Below are positions 48,108 through 53,444 of a DNA stretch of 53,444 nucleotides, piece by piece. This DNA comes from a virus (taxonomy: Duplodnaviria > Caudoviricetes). Every line of letters begins with the position of its first letter. Within the stretch, counting starts at the first letter, position 1. The stretch is taken from positions 1 through 53,444 of IMG/VR virus record IMGVR_UViG_3300030329_003629; one strand, written 5' to 3'. The position numbers and the translations under genes are program-made. A model generated the notes under the pieces. That model ran no database searches. It was given only the letters and a program-made list of their open reading frames with translations, and was not told the DNA's origin.

Positions 48108-49757
48108 CTAATCTCTTTTGTGAGTTACAATAGCATTAGTAGTAAGAATAGTCGTGGCTACACTAATAGCATTTAATAAAGCATTCTTTGTTACTTTCAC
48201 TGGATCTACAATTCCTAACTTAAACATATCTCCATACTCTCTATTAAAGACATCATATCCTTTATTATTAAAAGGAGGGTGAGGAGCATTCTCACTATCT
48301 CCCATCATTTCTTTGGTATATATTTTCCCCATAATTTCATCTGGGTCTAATCCAGCATTTTTTAATATCTGCTCTAAAGGAGCTCGTAAGGCTTCACGTA
48401 ATATCATCTCCGAAGCTTGATCTTCACCAATTATTTCATCAGTTGCATCTTCACAAGAACATCCAAAATGACGGTGGGTATCATATAAAAATAATCCTCC
48501 TCCTGCAATTATCCCTTCCTGCAGGGCGGAACGCACTGCACAGACCGAGTCATCGACTCGGTCAAATTTTTCTTTTTGCTCTATATCAGAATTAGCACCT
48601 ACATAGATACATGCAATCCCTCCAACTAAACTCGCTATTCTTTCGTTAATAAAGTCTTTCTCATGTTTAGCTGTTAACTGTTCTTGTTGTTCTCTAAGTT
48701 CCTCTACTCTTTTAGTAGTCTCTTTTGTTATCTCTCCATTTTTAATTAAGATAGTAGAATTTTTTCCTACAATAATTTTATCTGCATGACCTAAGTCTTG
48801 CATGTTTATAATAGATAAATCATCTCCTGTCTTTTCAGAAAAATATTTAGCTCCGGTTGCAAAAGCAATATCCTGCATAAGCTCATGTGTTTTATATCCA
48901 AATGATGGAGGAGCAATATTACATAGCTTTAAACCATTACGAGCCACATTCGCTGCTAATGTGTTTATAACATTTACCGAGCATTCTCCAATAATTAAAA
49001 GTTTTTCTCCTGAATTTATAATTGGTTTAAGAACATTCTCAATTTGAAGAATATTATTAATCTCAGTGTCACATATTAAAACTTTAACATTCTCTAATAT
49101 ACACTCGTCTTTTCTTTGATCATTCACAAACATAGGAGATGACCAACCTCTATCTATCTTTATTCCATTAGTTACATCACAATATGTTTTATCTGTCTGA
49201 GATCTTTCTACTGTTACAATCCCATCCTTTCCTACTTTCCTATATGCCTCAGCTACTATCTCACCAATCTCTTTCTCATTGTTAGCAGAAATAGAAGCAA
49301 TATCATCTAACATATCATCCGTTACCTGTACTGCATTTTTATTAAGGTTTTTTACAATCATCTCTACATCATACTTAACTCCCCAAATAACATCCCATAT
49401 ATTATGCTGAGGTTGAATCCATTTTATTCCTGCTTGAATTAATGCTTCTGTTAAAACAATAGCGGTTGTTGTACCATCGCCAGCGACATTCGCTGTTTTC
49501 TCCGAAGCTTGCTTTACCATTTTTACCGCGAGGTTCTCAACCGGATCCTCTAAATCGATAGACTTAGCTACGGTTACCCCGTCCTTAGTTACTGTTAATC
49601 CTTGCGTATGATTATTAGATTCAATAATTACTGTTTTACCGCTTGGACCTAATGTGCTTTTTACTGCTTGTGAAATTTTAGAGATTCCTGATATAAGTTT
49701 ATCTCTTCCCTCTTGATCAAAAGAGAGGTCTTTTGGAGTGTACCCTGGGTTCTGCAT
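48108..49757 (-). CDS. groEL: phage-encoded chaperonin GroEL
   Basis: VKSTLGPSG, TKDGVTVAK, AGDGTTTA, EGIIAGGG, GIVDPVKVT. Confidence 0.97.
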   Translation of the reverse strand: MQNPGYTPKDLSFDQEGRDKLISGISKISQAVKSTLGPSGKTVIIESNNHTQGLTVTKDGVTVAKSIDLEDPVENLAVKMVKQASEKTANVAGDGTTTAIVLTEALIQAGIKWIQPQHNIWDVIWGVKYDVEMIVKNLNKNAVQVTDDMLDDIASISANNEKEIGEIVAEAYRKVGKDGIVTVERSQTDKTYCDVTNGIKIDRGWSSPMFVNDQRKDECILENVKVLICDTEINNILQIENVLKPIINSGEKLLIIGECSVNVINTLAANVARNGLKLCNIAPPSFGYKTHELMQDIAFATGAKYFSEKTGDDLSIINMQDLGHADKIIVGKNSTILIKNGEITKETTKRVEELREQQEQLTAKHEKDFINERIASLVGGIACIYVGANSDIEQKEKFDRVDDSVCAVRSALQEGIIAGGGLFLYDTHRHFGCSCEDATDEIIGEDQASEMILREALRAPLEQILKNAGLDPDEIMGKIYTKEMMGDSENAPHPPFNNKGYDVFNREYGDMFKLGIVDPVKVTKNALLNAISVATTILTTNAIVTHKRD

Positions 49758-49788
49758 TGTAGTTTATTTTAGTTAATTTAATTTTATG

Positions 49789-49796
49789 CAAAGATA
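49789..49796 (-). promoter_or_regulatory. -7 promoter box TATCTTTG (groEL-groES)
   Basis: 31 nt upstream of the groEL ATG. Confidence 0.75.
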
Positions 49797-49816
49797 TAAA
49801 AATATATATATAATTT

Positions 49817-50007
49817 ATGTTAACATGTTAATCTTCTTTTTCTTTTTTATATATATATATTTCTTTCTTATATATATTATTTTTTATTTAAAAAAAAGGA
49901 CTTCAACTTAACATATTAACATATTTAAATATAAAGTATTAATAATCAATAAGTTATAAAATGTTGAGTTTAAAATAAGTCAACATAAATATGTTAAAGA
50001 TTAACAT
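49817..50007. repeat. AT-rich region with nine TYAACAT heptamers in both orientations
   Basis: Copies start at 49817, 49820, 49825, 49908, 49916, 49961, 49980, 49991 and 50001. Confidence 0.7.
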
Positions 50008-50014
50008 ATAAGAT

Positions 50015-50046
50015 AAAAAAAAGAGGCAAACCTAAGTTTAACCTCT
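50015..50046 (-). terminator. intrinsic terminator
   Basis: AGAGGTTAAAC-TTAG-GTTTGCCTCT (imperfect stem) followed by a U-tract, after ORF 50076-50288. Confidence 0.7.
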
Positions 50047-50075
50047 CTTCACACAACAGAACAAATGGGTTCTTT

Positions 50076-50288
50076 TTAGAACTCTAACTCTCTCCAGTTC
50101 TTTTTGTCTTCAGCTAATTCAATTCCCTCAGCTATCATATTTATTTTTCTATCGTTCTTAACCGCTCTTTTAATTCGAGCCGCTTGAGCAATACCTGTTT
50201 CTCCGTCAGGACGATCATTAATTAATCTTCCGTCTTTAACGTAAAGTCCATTTACGTAATCTGATGTTGTGCTTGTTTTCTTTGCCAT
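50076..50288 (-). CDS. hypothetical protein
   Basis: GLYVKDGRLINDRPDG; followed by a terminator. Confidence 0.7.
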   Translation of the reverse strand: MAKKTSTTSDYVNGLYVKDGRLINDRPDGETGIAQAARIKRAVKNDRKINMIAEGIELAEDKKNWRELEF

Positions 50289-50305
50289 TGTCTTTTATTT
50301 TTTAG

Positions 50306-50423
50306 TCATTTGTTTAAACGATTTAGAGATATCCTTTTTTATTTTATTGAACTCAGCTTGCGATATATTATCTCTCTTTTCCTTTTTTCTTTTATACTTT
50401 TTTCTGAGCCCTGATGTTTTCAT
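50306..50423 (-). CDS. short basic peptide (not in ORF track; end approximate)
   Basis: MKTSGLRKKYKRKRKRD... just downstream of the promoter box at 50438. Confidence 0.35.
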
Positions 50424-50437
50424 TGCTTTATTTTTTA

Positions 50438-50445
50438 CAAAGATA
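50438..50445 (-). promoter_or_regulatory. -7 promoter box TATCTTTG, first promoter of the minus-strand block
   Basis: TAnnTTTG match at the edge of the non-coding switch region. Confidence 0.7.
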
Positions 50446-50953
50446 TAAAATTTTTTTAGATGTCTGGGGGTTGAGGGTTATTATAGGATATACGAAGGCA
50501 CCTCGCCTTAGGAAATGAAAAAAAAATTGCACCCCCCCCTAACCGATTTGGAAATTTCCACCCGAACTTTTTGAGGTTTTTTTGGGGGACTACGTAACCC
50601 CACCTACCCACCTAACTATACTTGCTCTTAGTTGCTTGTTCGTTCTCCTTTGCTACTCTTAATGTCTACGAGTTAACGCATACCTTCCCTCATTTAGCAG
50701 AGGAAGAGAGAAGATACCTTCCCTTAATCACTTTGTTAAGACAAAGAGAGAGTAAGGTTAACCACCCCACCATCCCCAAAATACATAAACAAAACAACAA
50801 AATTATCAACACCTTAAACGATTGATAATCAATATACTTACAAGAGAGAATTATATGTGACAAGAAAATAATTGCAATTAACCATTGTCAATCCAAATTA
50901 AATCACGATATTTGCACTACAATTAAACAATTAGTAATCAAAAACACACAATT

Positions 50954-51163
50954 ATGAACAAGCAAAAAATCATTAAGAACATCATTGAGTTAAACAATGA
51001 GAGAGGTAATCTAAGAGAGAAATTAATGCTACCTAAAGATAAGGCACACTTAAAGCATTTATTAGAACGTATTGATAGTGTTACTGCTGAGATGTCAATG
51101 GAGATTGTATACTTGGAGAACGCAGTAAATAAAGAACAAGCGTTACTCAATATGCAAGATTAA
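50954..51163 (+). CDS. early hypothetical protein (coiled coil)
   Basis: Preceded by AAACACACAATT-ATG. Confidence 0.7.
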   Translation: MNKQKIIKNIIELNNERGNLREKLMLPKDKAHLKHLLERIDSVTAEMSMEIVYLENAVNKEQALLNMQD

Positions 51164-51172
51164 ACCTTAACC

Positions 51173-51239
51173 ACCACCGAATGGCTCGTACTGAATTAAG
51201 TACGGGCTTTTCGTGGTAGGGGACAATAGTGTTTCCTAC
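51173..51239 (+). ncRNA. intergenic structured RNA (long hairpin plus second hairpin), copy 1
   Basis: ACCACCGAATGGCTCGTACT-GAATTA-AGTACGGGCTTTTCGTGGT, then GTAGGGGACA-ATAG-TGTTTCCTAC. Confidence 0.7.
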
Positions 51240-51256
51240 AATTTAAACACACAATT

Positions 51257-51766
51257 ATGAACACACAAGAATTAACAATGAGATTAGATATGCTCATTCC
51301 AACGCAATGGTTATCTAACACTTTTACTGATGGATTATGGGATAGAGATGCTCACAAAGAGATACTATCAAAGGTAGTAGAATTGAATCCTAAATGGGTA
51401 GAGCGAGTAGTGAATTCAACAACAGGATTACATACTGATGGAGAGTTAAAGTTATCTGATGTACTACATGACTTTAAAGGTATCTACTCTGAAGATGAGC
51501 ATTTCCTACCGAGAATATCTACTGAAGTTACTGATGATGAGGTGTATGGATACACTAACATACAAACCTACCGATTATGTTTAGTATTAGACAATGAGCC
51601 GACTGAATGCTCTTATAATCCTTTAGAGAGATTCTTTGAGTTAGTATCTGATGAAGAATTTGAGATTACTGATATTAATCTTATCAATTGGAATGAGGTA
51701 ATTGAGAGATACTCGGAGAGATTAGTAGAGGGATATGAGTATAAACACCAAGTACAATTAGTATAA
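51257..51766 (+). CDS. early acidic hypothetical protein
   Basis: 169 aa; same leader motif. Confidence 0.75.
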   Translation: MNTQELTMRLDMLIPTQWLSNTFTDGLWDRDAHKEILSKVVELNPKWVERVVNSTTGLHTDGELKLSDVLHDFKGIYSEDEHFLPRISTEVTDDEVYGYTNIQTYRLCLVLDNEPTECSYNPLERFFELVSDEEFEITDINLINWNEVIERYSERLVEGYEYKHQVQLV

Positions 51767-51767
51767 A

Positions 51768-51825
51768 AATACTCTGATGAGTCTGCTGAAATGCAACGAA
51801 ACACCTCGCAAGAGGTGTCAGTATT
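51768..51825 (+). ncRNA. type I hammerhead ribozyme 1 (cleavage after C51819)
   Basis: Stem I AATACT/AGTATT; core CTGATGA; stem II GT(C)TGC-TGAAAT-GCAAC; GAAA; stem III CACCTC-GCAA-GAGGTG; GTC cleavage triplet. Confidence 0.93.
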
Positions 51826-51844
51826 AATTAAAAAACACACACAA

Positions 51845-52270
51845 ATGGGATACAATACCGATTGGAATGGAGGACTAACACTTAGTAGAGAGTTGACTCC
51901 AAAAGAGCAAAAAGAATGGAATGCTATTATAGAAAATAGACATGATAGTGAGTATTTTGAGGGAGATGAACGTAGAGAGTTTCCGAGTATATGGTGCGAC
52001 TTTGAGATTGATGGTAAAGAGTTTAGATGGAATGGTAATGAGAAGACTTATGAGGGCATCGGCTGGATTAAATTCTTCCTGAATAAGCTAAAAGAATGGA
52101 ATAAGACAGAAAAAATCTATGCAGAGGGAGAATTAGAATGGCGAGGAGATGATGGAGATGAAGATATGGGAAGAGTAGTAGTAATAGGAATGGAAGTAGG
52201 AGGAAAACACACCATCCACATTGATAATGTAGTATTTGACTACGAAAGAGATAAAACATACTACATATAG
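51845..52270 (+). CDS. conserved early phage protein of unknown function (141 aa), flanked by ribozymes
   Basis: Probable start MGYNTDW after AAAAACACACACAA; PSIWCDF...WNGNEKTY...W...GELEWRG. Confidence 0.8.
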   Translation: MGYNTDWNGGLTLSRELTPKEQKEWNAIIENRHDSEYFEGDERREFPSIWCDFEIDGKEFRWNGNEKTYEGIGWIKFFLNKLKEWNKTEKIYAEGELEWRGDDGDEDMGRVVVIGMEVGGKHTIHIDNVVFDYERDKTYYI

Positions 52271-52321
52271 ATACTCTGATGAGGACTCAATGTCCGAAAC
52301 TACCGAAAGGTAGTCAGTATC
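52270..52321 (+). ncRNA. type I hammerhead ribozyme 2 (cleavage after C52315)
   Basis: Stem I GATACT/AGTATC; core CTGATGA; stem II GGAC-TCAAT-GTCC; GAAA; stem III CTACC-GAAA-GGTAG; GTC cleavage triplet. Confidence 0.96.
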
Positions 52322-52348
52322 ATAAGATACCAATTAAAAACACACACA

Positions 52349-52573
52349 ATGTATAAAACAATGGTTAAAGAAGCCCAAGAATTTTGGGGACAAGTAGCAT
52401 CCGAAAATGGATGGAGTATGAATGGTAGAGGATGTACAATATGGATAAACAAAGACAATGAAGTATTAGATAGTATCTACAATAAAGAAGATAATAAAGA
52501 ATCTTATATCGTAGAAGTAGAGATAGATAATGATGGATACTATGAGAATGAGATATTAATTAAAACAATATAG
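52349..52573 (+). CDS. early hypothetical protein
   Basis: Preceded by AAAAACACACA-ATG. Confidence 0.7.
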   Translation: MYKTMVKEAQEFWGQVASENGWSMNGRGCTIWINKDNEVLDSIYNKEDNKESYIVEVEIDNDGYYENEILIKTI

Positions 52574-52575
52574 AT

Positions 52576-52947
52576 ATGAAAAACAAATATGCACGAAAAT
52601 GTGATTACACAGGTAAAGGAATGAATACAGGATATGTATTTATTGATGACTCCTGTATGATAGATGATAGAGAATTATTTATCAAAGAATTAAGAAAAGA
52701 TAGAGAGGGTATTATTAACTTGATACCAAAAGATATCAAAGATATTCATGGCTTTGATAATTCTTGTTATCTAACTGAAAAAGAGATAGAGGAGTTGTCA
52801 AATAAAGTAGCAAATGCACTTAATAATAATGAAACTGATGAAGAGTTATGCGATATAGCATATGCAGTAGATTATTATTATTGGACACAATGGGAAGATG
52901 AATATGAGTATGAGGAAATTAATGGAGTATTAACTGAAATAGAATAG
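52576..52947 (+). CDS. early hypothetical protein
   Basis: ARKCDYTGKGMNTGY...YYWTQWE. Confidence 0.75.
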   Translation: MKNKYARKCDYTGKGMNTGYVFIDDSCMIDDRELFIKELRKDREGIINLIPKDIKDIHGFDNSCYLTEKEIEELSNKVANALNNNETDEELCDIAYAVDYYYWTQWEDEYEYEEINGVLTEIE

Positions 52948-52949
52948 AT

Positions 52950-53150
52950 ATGAAAATAAGAGATTATATAGCAGAGTTAATTATGATAACGTTATTCGCA
53001 ATTGTTATGTCCTCTTGCGGAATAACAAACAAATTAACTGATGAACAACTACACCACCGATCCCGAATTGAGTATGAAATGAATAAATTATGGAACGAAT
53101 ACCAAATAAAGAACGACTCTTTACTAATGGAATATTATAAAATTAAATAG
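52950..53150 (+). CDS. putative lipoprotein
   Basis: Basic N-terminus, hydrophobic core and lipobox-like MSS|C. Confidence 0.65.
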   Translation: MKIRDYIAELIMITLFAIVMSSCGITNKLTDEQLHHRSRIEYEMNKLWNEYQIKNDSLLMEYYKIK

Positions 53151-53187
53151 ATAAAGAAATTATTAATCAATTAAAAAACATATAGAT

Positions 53188-53388
53188 ATGATAGATTTAA
53201 AAAAAGAGCAATGTTATAATTGTGATGAGATGTATGAATGGAAAGAAGTACCAAGTGGATGGGATGAGGAGTATTGTACTGAATGTAATGAAAGATTAAA
53301 CCCATACTTATGTAATAACTGCAATGAAGAGGTAGATGAGCCGGATACCTTTTGTAGTAAATGGTGCAGTCAAGAGTATTGGTTATGA
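53188..53388 (+). CDS. small Zn-finger protein
   Basis: CYNC, CTEC, CNNC and CSKWC motifs. Confidence 0.7.
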   Translation: MIDLKKEQCYNCDEMYEWKEVPSGWDEEYCTECNERLNPYLCNNCNEEVDEPDTFCSKWCSQEYWL

Positions 53389-53408
53389 TTTAATTGTGTG
53401 TGTAGGAC

Positions 53409-53444
53409 ACGATTGGCTCACTATGAAAATAGTGGGCTTTTCGT
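53409..53444 (+). ncRNA. intergenic structured RNA hairpin, copy 2 (truncated by window end)
   Basis: ACGATTGGCTCACTAT-GAAA-ATAGTGGGCTTTTCGT. Confidence 0.7.

What the first reader, a model, noticed from the sequence alone, without database searches (positions are those of the whole stretch)
52270..52321. Canonical hammerhead ribozyme 2 fused to a stop codon
All conserved core nucleotides are present (CUGAUGA, GAAA, GUC), with three perfect helices and a GAAA tetraloop on stem III. The G of the upstream TAG is the first base of stem I. Cleavage would leave the downstream gene (ATG 52349) with a 33-nt 5'-OH leader. Inference: terminating ribosomes could affect folding and so couple cleavage to translation.
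Basis: seen in the sequence. Interest (0 to 1): 0.85.

Follow-up and report, generated by a model that had tools for sequence, protein, structure and literature searches.

The report
Phage hammerhead ribozyme between two genes
This is a genuine-looking self-cutting hammerhead RNA sitting between two small early genes of an uncultured phage of Flavobacteria-type hosts, one of a very common and already known kind of phage ribozyme, and its contact with a stop codon looks like tight gene packing rather than a special control device.

Summary
Window 52270-52321 (+) has every hammerhead core nucleotide, three perfect helices (6, 4 and 6 bp) and a GAAA loop on stem III. The gpC stop codon (TAG, 52268-52270) shares its G with stem I, and cleavage at 52315/52316 would leave a 33-nt leader. 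A strict descriptor hits only this site; 0 of 200 shuffles gave any hit.

Rfam finds nothing. It also misses 21 sister ribozymes in 11 other viral loci. My own covariance model scores the site at 60.9 bits and a second ribozyme at 51768-51825 at 51.6 bits; the next best is 11.2.

Across 105 phage copies, 97.1% of cells pair, against 64.6% when shuffled, with 484 double-sided changes. This is a type I hammerhead of a class abundant in phages. The two copies flank one small gene, an arrangement already described for prophages (PMC3088659).

The most likely function is co-transcriptional cutting of the early polycistronic mRNA into separate units.

Translation coupling is not supported as a designed feature. 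Stop-codon position relative to the ribozyme varies widely across the class and among orthologues.

It is a new member of a known kind, of moderate interest.

The parts
52270..52321 (+). Complete type I hammerhead ribozyme (HH2), with stem I open
   Evidence: Sequence. MFE equals the hammerhead fold. It is the only strict-descriptor hit. Own model R1 scores it 60.9 bits, E 3.9e-15. It was in the model's seed.
52268..52270 (+). TAG stop codon of the upstream gene gpC; G52270 is also the first base of stem I
   Evidence: C3 minus last base of the stop = 6.
52270..52275 (+). Stem I, 5' strand (GATACT)
52276..52282 (+). Catalytic core C3-A9 (CUGAUGA)
   Evidence: CTGA and GA are invariant in the 105 aligned copies and N7 varies.
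52283..52295 (+). Stem II (4 bp) with loop UCAAU, which fits the class motif U-N-A-A-U
   Evidence: Loop positions 1/3/4/5 are U/A/A/U in 32/24/28/32 of 33 five-base loops.
52296..52298 (+). Core G12 A13 A14
52299..52314 (+). Stem III (6 bp including A15.1-U16.1) with a GAAA tetraloop
   Evidence: Stem III pairs covary across the class.
52315..52316 (+). C17 and the predicted scissile bond (52315/52316)
   Evidence: Position follows from the hammerhead numbering applied. Cleavage itself is not shown.
52316..52321 (+). Stem I, 3' strand (AGTATC); it would be the 5'-OH end of the downstream mRNA
52317..52330 (+). Alternative small hairpin (GUAUC-AUAA-GAUAC) that re-uses the stem I 3' strand. Proposed as a post-cleavage 5'-terminal hairpin or lock.
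   Evidence: -3.9 kcal/mol, z -2.17, 11 of 200 shuffles as good. Identical in 5 related loci, and a second stem I family (CTGTCT/AGACAG) has a matching downstream copy. Class-wide enrichment is weak: 11 of 98 against 5.2 +/- 2.0.
52331..52351 (+). A/C-rich unstructured leader and the ATG (52349) of gpD
   Evidence: Similar leader motifs lie before the ATGs at 50954, 51257 and 51845.
51768..51825 (+). Second type I hammerhead (HH1). C17 = 51819; stem I is AATACT/AGTATT; stem II has a bulge.
   Evidence: R1 scores it 51.6 bits. It was in the seed.
51845..52270 (+). gpC, 141 aa, the gene flanked by the two ribozymes; function unknown
   Evidence: phrog_38666 (unknown function), E 1.1e-10. No Pfam family.
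52349..52573 (+). gpD, 74 aa, the gene downstream of the ribozyme; function unknown
   Evidence: No PHROG or Pfam match. Its N-terminus follows the HH2-like ribozyme in L037.
51257..51766 (+). gpB, 169 aa, upstream of HH1. Its TAA (51764-51766) lies 1 nt before HH1 stem I.

Best explanation
Window 52270-52321 encodes a functional type I hammerhead self-cleaving ribozyme. It belongs to a compact class: stem I of 5-6 bp, usually a 4-5 bp stem II, and a closed stem III. The class is very common between genes of phages.

The contig is an incomplete genome (CheckV estimate 88%) of an uncultured tailed phage, probably infecting Flavobacteriia. Two such ribozymes (51768-51825 and 52270-52321) bracket the small gene gpC inside a + strand operon of small genes of unknown function.

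Proposed mechanism:
1. As the operon is transcribed, each ribozyme folds and cuts after its C17 (51819/51820 and 52315/52316).
2. This splits the polycistronic RNA into separate mRNAs: gpB and whatever lies upstream, gpC alone, and gpD onwards.
3. Each upstream product ends in a 2',3'-cyclic phosphate behind the stem II and stem III hairpins.
4. Each downstream product starts with a 5'-OH, here followed by a small hairpin and an unstructured A/C-rich leader 33 nt before the ATG.
5. Neighbouring cistrons would thereby be uncoupled in stability and translation.
6. The short stem I lets the products separate.

Shown here: the sequence and structure, membership of a covarying family, the gene context, and the mosaic distribution.
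Inferred: cleavage itself, and its effect on mRNA stability and translation.

The contact with the stop codon is best explained by tight packing, together with a class-wide preference for an A just 5' of stem I.
For: Structure and chance
- All core nucleotides and three perfect helices are present.
- The isolated 52 nt fold as a hammerhead; 0 of 200 shuffles fold as well.
- The strict descriptor gives 1 hit in the window and 0 of 200 shuffles with any hit.

Family
Of 127 matches, 115 have the same three-helix type I topology.
- Model R1 gives 60.9 and 51.6 bits for the two window sites, against 11.2 for the next best.
- R1 finds 105 copies in 88 sources. These include copies my pattern could not have selected, with CUGACGA cores and swapped 1.1-2.1 pairs.
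- Covariation: 97.1% of 1508 cells pair, against 64.6% shuffled and 27-34% with slid partners. There are 484 double-sided changes, and 12 of 15 pairs change on both sides.
- RNAalifold predicts the same 15 pairs.

Context
- A downstream ATG-ORF follows in 85 of 101 unique contexts, at a median of 27 nt from the cut (IQR 24-32); here it is 33 nt.
- Several copies per locus are common: 14 of the 88 sources have 2-4.
- The gpC orthologue in L121 is also bracketed by two ribozymes with different stems II and III.

Literature (passages read)
- Multiple hammerheads flank single genes in prophages, and they cut about 2-kb polycistronic transcripts in vitro, and in vivo in E. coli (PMC3088659).
- A persistent link to phages and to small unknown ORFs is noted (PMC6155905).
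- Processing of polycistronic transcripts is the suggested role (PMC6765202).

Host
- 13 of 14 genome-contig hits to the ATACT/AGTAT stem I subfamily are Flavobacteriales or Bacteroidetes assemblies.
- The capsid-like protein matches Flavobacterium, Cellulophaga and Maribacter phages at 47-53% and one uncultured phage at 66.5%.
Against: - No Rfam hammerhead model reports the site, even at E<=10. None reaches its gathering score in 11 other loci that hold 21 R1 hits, so this is at least partly a limit of the models. A 2026 preprint reports a hammerhead cluster that stays below all six Rfam hammerhead models (10.64898/2026.10.21.760802; passages).
- R1 was seeded with the window's own two sequences, and the loci were fetched with a pattern taken from them. 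The scores of the two sites are therefore partly by construction, and five base pairs were fixed by the pattern.
- The A2 alignment is fitted to the model structure.
- In longer context the hammerhead fold is not the predicted MFE. HH2: -17.8 against -19.0 kcal/mol. HH1: -17.6 or -15.7 against -21.1.
- The tertiary stem I-stem II contact that natural hammerheads need at low Mg2+ was not identified. There are only hints: the UNAAU loop II, and A at -7 and +7.
- No cleavage or expression data exist.
- Three related deposited phage genomes have no R1 hit (positive control).
Confidence: 0.85

Rival explanations
1. Translation-coupled ribozyme switch. Because the gpC stop codon overlaps stem I, terminating ribosomes control whether the ribozyme folds. 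Cleavage, and hence gpD expression, would depend on translation of gpC.
For: - The 1-nt overlap is real. It recurs, with a compensating change (TAA, A-U instead of TAG, G-C), after the gpC orthologue in L121.
- 39 of 98 unique contexts have the stop within 5-8 nt of C3.
- The downstream GAUAC copy can capture the stem I 3' strand whenever the 5' strand is occupied. That gives a plausible two-state system.
- From general knowledge, a ribosome at a stop codon covers roughly a dozen nucleotides downstream.
Against: - The geometry is not conserved. In 21 of 98 contexts the stop is 9-40 nt upstream, in 19 it is inside the ribozyme, and 19 have no long ORF.
- The L126 orthologue reads 24 nt into the ribozyme, and four of six related gpC loci have no ribozyme after gpC.
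- A at position -7 is about as frequent when the stop lies elsewhere (17 of 21; 14 of 19) as when it touches the boundary (31 of 39).
- The HH2-like module sits behind a different gene in L037.
- HH1 has a 1-nt gap and no downstream hairpin.
Confidence: 0.08
2. End-pairing or circularisation module. Neighbouring ribozymes share stem I, so the RNA cut out between them (51820-52315, 496 nt, carrying gpC) can pair its 5'-OH end with the stem I 5' strand at its own 3' end. That rebuilds a hammerhead and could be ligated, by the ribozyme or by an RtcB-type ligase, into a circular or end-protected mRNA.
For: - HH2's body joined to HH1's 3' strand is predicted to fold into the same hammerhead (-14.7 against -16.3 kcal/mol).
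- Ribozymes within one locus share stem I far more than they share stem II. Mean identity is 0.65 within loci against 0.30 between loci for stem I, and 0.30 against 0.45 for stem II. In 10 of 18 within-locus pairs, at least 3 of the 4 outer stem I positions are identical, against 13% of between-locus pairs.
- The chemistry of the two ends is what hammerhead ligation and RtcB use (general knowledge).
Against: - The sample is small and not independent: 18 pairs from 14 loci with two or more ribozymes.
- Shared stem I can equally reflect recent duplication, or selection on the 5' end of the mature mRNA.
- There are no RNA data.
- The gpC ORF has its own stop, so a circle brings no obvious coding gain.
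- Several loci have neighbours with unlike stem I (L078, L091, L086, L054).
Confidence: 0.05
3. Selfish or neutral intergenic passenger. The ribozyme-plus-leader module spreads among related phages by recombination and cleaves, but gives the phage no benefit.
For: - Presence and absence are mosaic among close relatives.
- Near-identical modules (GATACT...AGTATC-ATAAGATACC) precede different genes in L037, L058, L061, L112 and L120.
- Reviews note an association of hammerheads with selfish elements (PMC3088659).
Against: - Strong purifying selection acts on structure, with compensatory changes across 105 copies.
- The copies are placed consistently between a stop and a start, on the coding strand.
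- Phage genomes are under pressure for compactness (general knowledge).
Confidence: 0.1
4. Chance resemblance or a dead relic that does not cleave.
For: - No Rfam match.
- The hammerhead fold is not the MFE in context.
Against: - 0 of 200 shuffles give a descriptor hit.
- There are two copies 500 nt apart, on the coding strand, in intergenic gaps.
- The core is perfect and the site belongs to a covarying family.
Confidence: 0.02

Closest known systems
Bacterial and prophage hammerhead ribozymes that flank individual genes (Perreault et al. 2011, PMC3088659; passages read)
   Same: - Canonical core.
- Several ribozymes close together, bracketing single small genes of unknown function in phage DNA.
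- Location between cistrons of one transcript.
- Polycistronic processing was shown for three such arrangements.
   Different: - The tested examples came from Clostridium, Azorhizobium and Agrobacterium prophages. The paper's emphasis was on type II ribozymes and pseudoknot contacts.
- This one is type I with a 6-bp open stem I, has no recognisable pseudoknot, and lies in a Flavobacteriia-type phage.
- I could not see that paper's supplementary alignments, so this class may already be listed there.
Rfam Hammerhead_1 (RF00163), the type I hammerheads of Schistosoma and newt satellite DNA
   Same: - Type I topology (stem I open).
- The same catalytic core and cleavage chemistry.
   Different: - The model does not report the window site even at E<=10.
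- By recall, the eukaryotic members have a long stem I with an internal loop that contacts loop II, and often a very short stem III. Here stem I is 6 bp flanked by A residues, and stem III is a stable 6-bp GAAA hairpin.
RiboJ-type synthetic ribozyme insulators
   Same: A self-cleaving hammerhead followed by a small hairpin and then the translation start region. It gives the downstream gene a defined 5'-OH leader that does not depend on what lies upstream.
   Different: - RiboJ is engineered from a type III satellite-RNA hammerhead.
- This element is natural and type I, and it also defines the 3' end of an upstream mRNA.
Retrozymes and viroid-like RNAs, where paired hammerheads excise a unit that is circularised (PMC6155905; passages)
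   Same: Two hammerheads with compatible stem I bracket a unit of a few hundred nucleotides. The ends have the right chemistry for ligation.
   Different: There is no evidence of circles here. The unit is a protein-coding cistron in a DNA phage operon, not a replicon or a retroelement.

Membership tests
Hammerhead ribozyme class | Core strand C3 U4 G5 A6 N7 G8 A9 | tested here: met
   CTGATGA at 52276-52282.
Hammerhead ribozyme class | Core G12 A13 A14, followed by the A15.1-U16.1 pair | tested here: met
   GAA at 52296-52298; A52299 pairs with T52314.
Hammerhead ribozyme class | Cleavage-site nucleotide H17 (not G), directly 3' of stem III and 5' of stem I | tested here: met
   C52315. C at this position in 98% of 98 unique copies.
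Hammerhead ribozyme class | Three helices around the core, supported by covariation in relatives | tested here: met
   MFE fold. 97.1% of cells paired against 64.6% shuffled, with 484 double-sided changes. RNAalifold predicts the same 15 pairs. Caveats: the alignment is fitted to the model, and five pairs were fixed by the fetch pattern.
Hammerhead ribozyme class | Tertiary contact between stem I and stem II elements, needed for fast cleavage at physiological Mg2+ | tested here: inconclusive
   Loop II fits a conserved U-N-A-A-U motif. A is found in 74% of copies at position -7 and in 71% at +7 next to stem I. No pseudoknot or defined contact was found.
Hammerhead ribozyme class | Site-specific self-cleavage giving 2',3'-cyclic phosphate and 5'-OH ends | not testable with these tools
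   No RNA run was listed for this stretch.
Type I hammerhead topology | Stem I open; stems II and III closed by loops | tested here: met
Rfam hammerhead families (RF00163 and the other hammerhead models in Rfam 15) | Score at or above the family's gathering threshold | tested here: not met
   0 matches at gathering score over the window. No hammerhead family at E<=10 in 52150-52450. RF00163: none at E<=10 with 8 candidates scored. No hammerhead family reaches its gathering score in 11 loci that hold 21 R1 hits.
Multi-hammerhead gene-flanking arrangement of prophages (PMC3088659) | Two or more hammerheads on one strand, bracketing a gene or a short block of genes in phage DNA | tested here: met
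   HH1 (51768-51825) and HH2 (52270-52321) bracket gpC (51845-52270). The same arrangement is seen in L121 and L126.
   39, 21, 19 and 19 of 98 contexts fall into four different classes. Among the six related gpC loci, L121 has the same 1-nt overlap as the window, L126 has a 24-nt overlap, and four have no ribozyme after gpC.

The most novel reading that the evidence does not exclude
Neighbouring hammerheads in one phage keep the same stem I. As a result, each excised cistron (here the 496-nt gpC RNA, 51820-52315) can pair its 5'-OH end with the ribozyme at its own 3' end and be sealed, by reverse hammerhead ligation or a host RtcB-type ligase. DNA phages would then be making end-closed or circular mRNAs from their early operons. 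The compact UNAAU-loop type I class, which Rfam does not detect, would be the device for this.
Probability: 0.05. Interest if true: 0.8.

Novelty: new member of a known kind. Interest (0 to 1): 0.35.

Why it matters
What phage hammerheads are for is still an open question. The reviews I read say so (PMC6155905; PMC6765202).

This locus adds a clean, statistically solid example. Through its relatives it also adds several usable observations:
- A large, compact type I class in phages is invisible to the current Rfam models.
- Loop II is conserved (U-N-A-A-U), and A residues flank stem I, which may mark its tertiary contact.
- The distribution among related phages is mosaic and module-like; the ribozyme travels with the downstream leader.
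- Stem I is specific to each genome.

The analysis also corrects an annotation trap. A mechanical ORF call starts gpC at an ATG inside HH1 (51791) instead of at 51845.

The site itself does not change what is known about hammerheads.

Tried and rejected
- Rfam scans. Gathering score over the whole window gave 0 hits. At E<=10 around the site there were only three chance snoRNA/miRNA rows. RF00163 through the genome search gave none. I do not take this as evidence against the ribozyme, because the same library reports no hammerhead in 11 loci that hold 21 R1 hits.
- The loose core-only pattern in the window was not above chance, so I replaced it with a helix-aware descriptor.
- The post-cleavage 5' hairpin as a class-wide feature is only weakly enriched. 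It appears in 34 of 103 copies against 24.4 +/- 3.8, and in 11 of 98 against 5.2 +/- 2.0 for tight loops. The copies are not independent, so I kept it as a subfamily feature only.
- I looked by eye for a pseudoknot between loop II and the flanks. I saw nothing convincing in these AT-rich leaders and did not pursue it.
- Thermodynamic context folds were not used as evidence either way. Nearest-neighbour models ignore the hammerhead core and tertiary contacts.
- RNA evidence: no RNA holder was listed for 51200-53400.
- Cultured relatives. The 2.2-kb region has no blastn match in deposited phages. gpC has no tblastn match. A 98-nt query gave three irrelevant short hits. R1 finds nothing in Maribacter phage Panino, Flavobacterium phage elemoF_6-3D or MW202828 (positive control on the window). 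No culturable model system was found.
- PHROG and Pfam give no function for gpA-gpF. gpC matches only phrog_38666 (unknown function), and gpG is a double zinc ribbon.
- Literature. Searches listed no paper on stop-codon or translation coupling of phage hammerheads. 'Stop codon' occurs 0 times in the main text of PMC3088659.
Full report
WHAT IS THERE

The window is the whole record: one linear viral contig of 53,444 bp, 35% G+C, with a CheckV completeness estimate of 88%. Long minus-strand genes fill 3591-49757. They include a chaperonin-family protein (Cpn60_TCP1, E 4.7e-63) and a protein with a weak Crass-capsid match. That capsid-like protein matches 85 deposited phage records. One uncultured phage matches at 66.5%. 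The cultured matches, at 47-53%, are from Flavobacterium (68 records), Cellulophaga (15) and Maribacter (1).

From about 50954 to the end of the contig runs a + strand operon of small genes. I call them gpA to gpG. Apart from a zinc ribbon in gpG and an unknown-function PHROG for gpC, they have no family match.

THE OBSERVATION

Read directly, 52270-52321 is as follows:
- stem I, GATACT paired with AGTATC;
- core CTGATGA;
- stem II, GGAC paired with GTCC, with loop TCAAT;
- GAA;
- stem III, ACTACC paired with GGTAGT, with loop GAAA;
- C17 at 52315.

The TAG at 52268-52270 ends gpC and gives its G to stem I. From A52316 to the ATG at 52349 is 33 nt.

The 52 nt alone fold into this junction (-16.3 kcal/mol, z -3.08, 0 of 200 shuffles as good). 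A helix-aware type I descriptor finds this one site on both strands of the window and nothing in 200 dinucleotide shuffles. A core-only pattern is not above chance (25 matches against 19.3 +/- 12.3). It did, however, expose a second candidate at 51774-51830.

THE RFAM BLANK

- Rfam 15 gives no match at gathering score anywhere in the window.
- No hammerhead family appears at E<=10 in 52150-52450.
- RF00163 alone gives nothing at E<=10.

This had to be resolved before accepting the site. Of 127 matches, 115 have the same topology. I built a covariance model (R1) from 85 distinct sequences, including the window's two.

In the window, R1 scores 60.9 bits at 52270-52321 and 51.6 bits at 51768-51825; the next best is 11.2. 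The two sites were in the seed, so the gap to the background matters more than the absolute scores.

When I ran Rfam on 11 of the fetched loci, which hold 21 R1 hits, it reported one RAGATH-14 RNA and nine tRNAs but no hammerhead. The blank is therefore a limit of the curated models for this class. A 2026 preprint reports the same situation for another hammerhead cluster: the best score was 26.4 bits against RF00163's cutoff of 34, and that seed has 29 sequences (10.64898/2026.10.21.760802; passages).

FAMILY EVIDENCE

R1 finds 105 copies in 88 sources at E<=0.001. On the resulting alignment:
- 97.1% of 1508 cells form standard pairs, against 64.6 +/- 0.8% for shuffled partners and 27-34% for partners slid by 1-3 columns;
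- there are 484 cells with changes on both sides, against 136 +/- 12;
- 12 of 15 pairs show double-sided changes.

RNAalifold predicts the same 15 pairs independently.

Caveats: the alignment is fitted to the model, the copies are related, and five pairs were fixed by my fetch pattern. However, R1 also recovered copies that the pattern could not have selected. They have CUGACGA cores and swapped 1.1-2.1 pairs, which is what real hammerheads allow.

Within the class, the five-base loops of stem II follow U-N-A-A-U (32, 24, 28 and 32 of 33 at positions 1, 3, 4 and 5), and the window's UCAAU fits. The bases just outside a 6-bp stem I are A in 74% of copies (5' side) and 71% (3' side) of 98 unique copies. 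These are candidates for the tertiary contact that natural hammerheads need, but I could not define one.

CONTEXT AND THE STOP CODON

A start codon with an ORF follows the cut in 85 of 101 unique contexts, at a median of 27 nt (IQR 24-32). The window's 33 nt is ordinary.

The upstream stop is at the stem I boundary in 39 of 98 unique contexts, 9-40 nt upstream in 21, and inside the ribozyme in 19. Nineteen have no long ORF. The A just 5' of stem I is about as frequent whether or not a stop codon supplies it (31 of 39, 17 of 21, 14 of 19, 11 of 19).

Among the six other loci that encode a gpC relative:
- L121 has ribozymes directly before and after the gene. The last base of its TAA is the first base of an A-U-closed stem I, which is the window's arrangement with a compensating change.
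- L126 also has ribozymes on both sides, but its ORF runs 24 nt into the ribozyme and stops in stem II/loop II.
- L122 to L125 have no ribozyme after the gene.

L037 has gpB (79% identity over residues 84-169) followed directly by an HH2-like ribozyme, which has the same stem I, stem III and downstream hairpin. Next comes the start of gpD, with no gpC. The ribozyme therefore goes with the downstream leader and gene. It comes and goes among relatives, and it has no fixed relation to the stop codon. Touching a stop codon is common in the class, but it is best read as tight packing.

HOW IT MOST LIKELY WORKS

The two ribozymes should cut the early transcript at 51819/51820 and 52315/52316. That would release gpC as its own mRNA and separate the gpB and gpD-onward messages.

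Upstream products would end in a cyclic phosphate behind two hairpins. Downstream products would begin with a 5'-OH. After HH2, the stem I 3' strand can fold back on a downstream GAUAC to make a small 5' hairpin (-3.9 kcal/mol), ahead of an unstructured A/C-rich leader.

That hairpin is identical in five related loci, and a second stem I family carries a matching downstream copy. Class-wide it is only weakly enriched.

Cutting polycistronic RNA is what was shown for three prophage arrangements (PMC3088659), and it is the role suggested in reviews (PMC6765202). Here it is an inference.

Other intergenic gaps of the same operon carry strong double hairpins instead (51175-51239, z -5.9; 53391-53437). 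In L061 a similar element stands before the gpC relative, where the window has HH1. This suggests that ribozymes and hairpin elements are interchangeable ways of punctuating the operon.

A BOLDER READING

Ribozymes within one locus share stem I but not stem II:
- stem I identity is 0.65 within loci and 0.30 between loci;
- stem II identity is 0.30 within loci and 0.45 between loci;
- in 10 of 18 within-locus pairs, at least 3 of the 4 outer stem I positions are identical, against 13% of between-locus pairs.

HH2's body with HH1's 3' strand still folds as a hammerhead (-14.7 kcal/mol). The excised gpC RNA could thus close on itself and perhaps be ligated. The sample is small and duplication could explain it. 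I give this reading about 5%.

HOST

Thirteen of 14 bacterial-assembly hits to the ATACT/AGTAT subfamily pattern are Flavobacteriales, Weeksellaceae or Bacteroidetes records, and one is Dehalococcoidales. Together with the capsid matches, this points to a Flavobacteriia phage.

VERDICT

This is a real member of the hammerhead class. It is type I and belongs to an abundant phage subclass that Rfam misses, in a gene-flanking arrangement already in print. It is a new member of a known kind, of moderate interest.

Limits:
- No RNA holder was listed for the stretch.
- No cultured relative with the ribozyme was found.
- Supplementary files of papers were closed.

Noticed in passing
window 51768-51825 (+): A second type I hammerhead (HH1). 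Stem I is AATACT/AGTATT, stem II has a bulged C, the stem III loop is GCAA, and C17 is 51819. It starts 1 nt after the gpB stop and lies 25 nt before the gpC ATG. R1 scores it 51.6 bits.
   Followed up: yes
window 51791 versus 51845: The mechanical ORF list starts the gene between the ribozymes at an ATG inside loop II of HH1 (51791). The start that fits the leader motif and the orthologues (MGYNTDWN...) is 51845. Gene callers are likely to mis-annotate this.
   Followed up: yes
window 51175-51239 and 53391-53437 (+): Strong double-hairpin intergenic elements (z -5.9 and -4.9) that share the motif GGGCTTTTCGT. A similar element precedes the gpC relative in L061. They may be terminators or processing sites used in place of a ribozyme, and no Rfam family matches them.
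   Followed up: partly
window 50940-50956, 51238-51259, 51826-51847, 52332-52351 (+): A repeated A/C-rich leader (AATTAAAAACACACACAATG and variants) lies directly before four start codons. There is no Shine-Dalgarno-like sequence, which fits a Bacteroidota-type host.
   Followed up: no
window 49760-50950: About 1.2 kb without a convincing ORF, between the divergent gene blocks. It holds very AT-rich repeats (49790-49900) and odd C- and G-runs (50520-50600). This may be a control or origin region.
   Followed up: no
window 48108-49757 (-): A phage-encoded chaperonin-family protein (Cpn60_TCP1, E 4.7e-63).
   Followed up: no
L126:1501-1970: The gpC orthologue reads 24 nt into its downstream hammerhead (through stem I, the core and stem II 5') and stops at a TAG in stem II/loop II. 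Here coding sequence and ribozyme overlap.
   Followed up: partly
L037:10662-11078: A related phage has gpB, an HH2-like ribozyme and then gpD, with no gpC. The ribozyme-bracketed gene is an insertion/deletion unit between relatives.
   Followed up: partly
14 sources with 2-4 ribozymes each, e.g. L073, L093, L049, L021: Ribozymes within one phage tend to share the stem I sequence but not stems II or III.
   Followed up: partly
L005:270-441 and nearby: A RAGATH-14 RNA (184.6 bits) and nine tRNA genes lie within a few kb of a hammerhead of this class, on a 270-kb viral contig.
   Followed up: no
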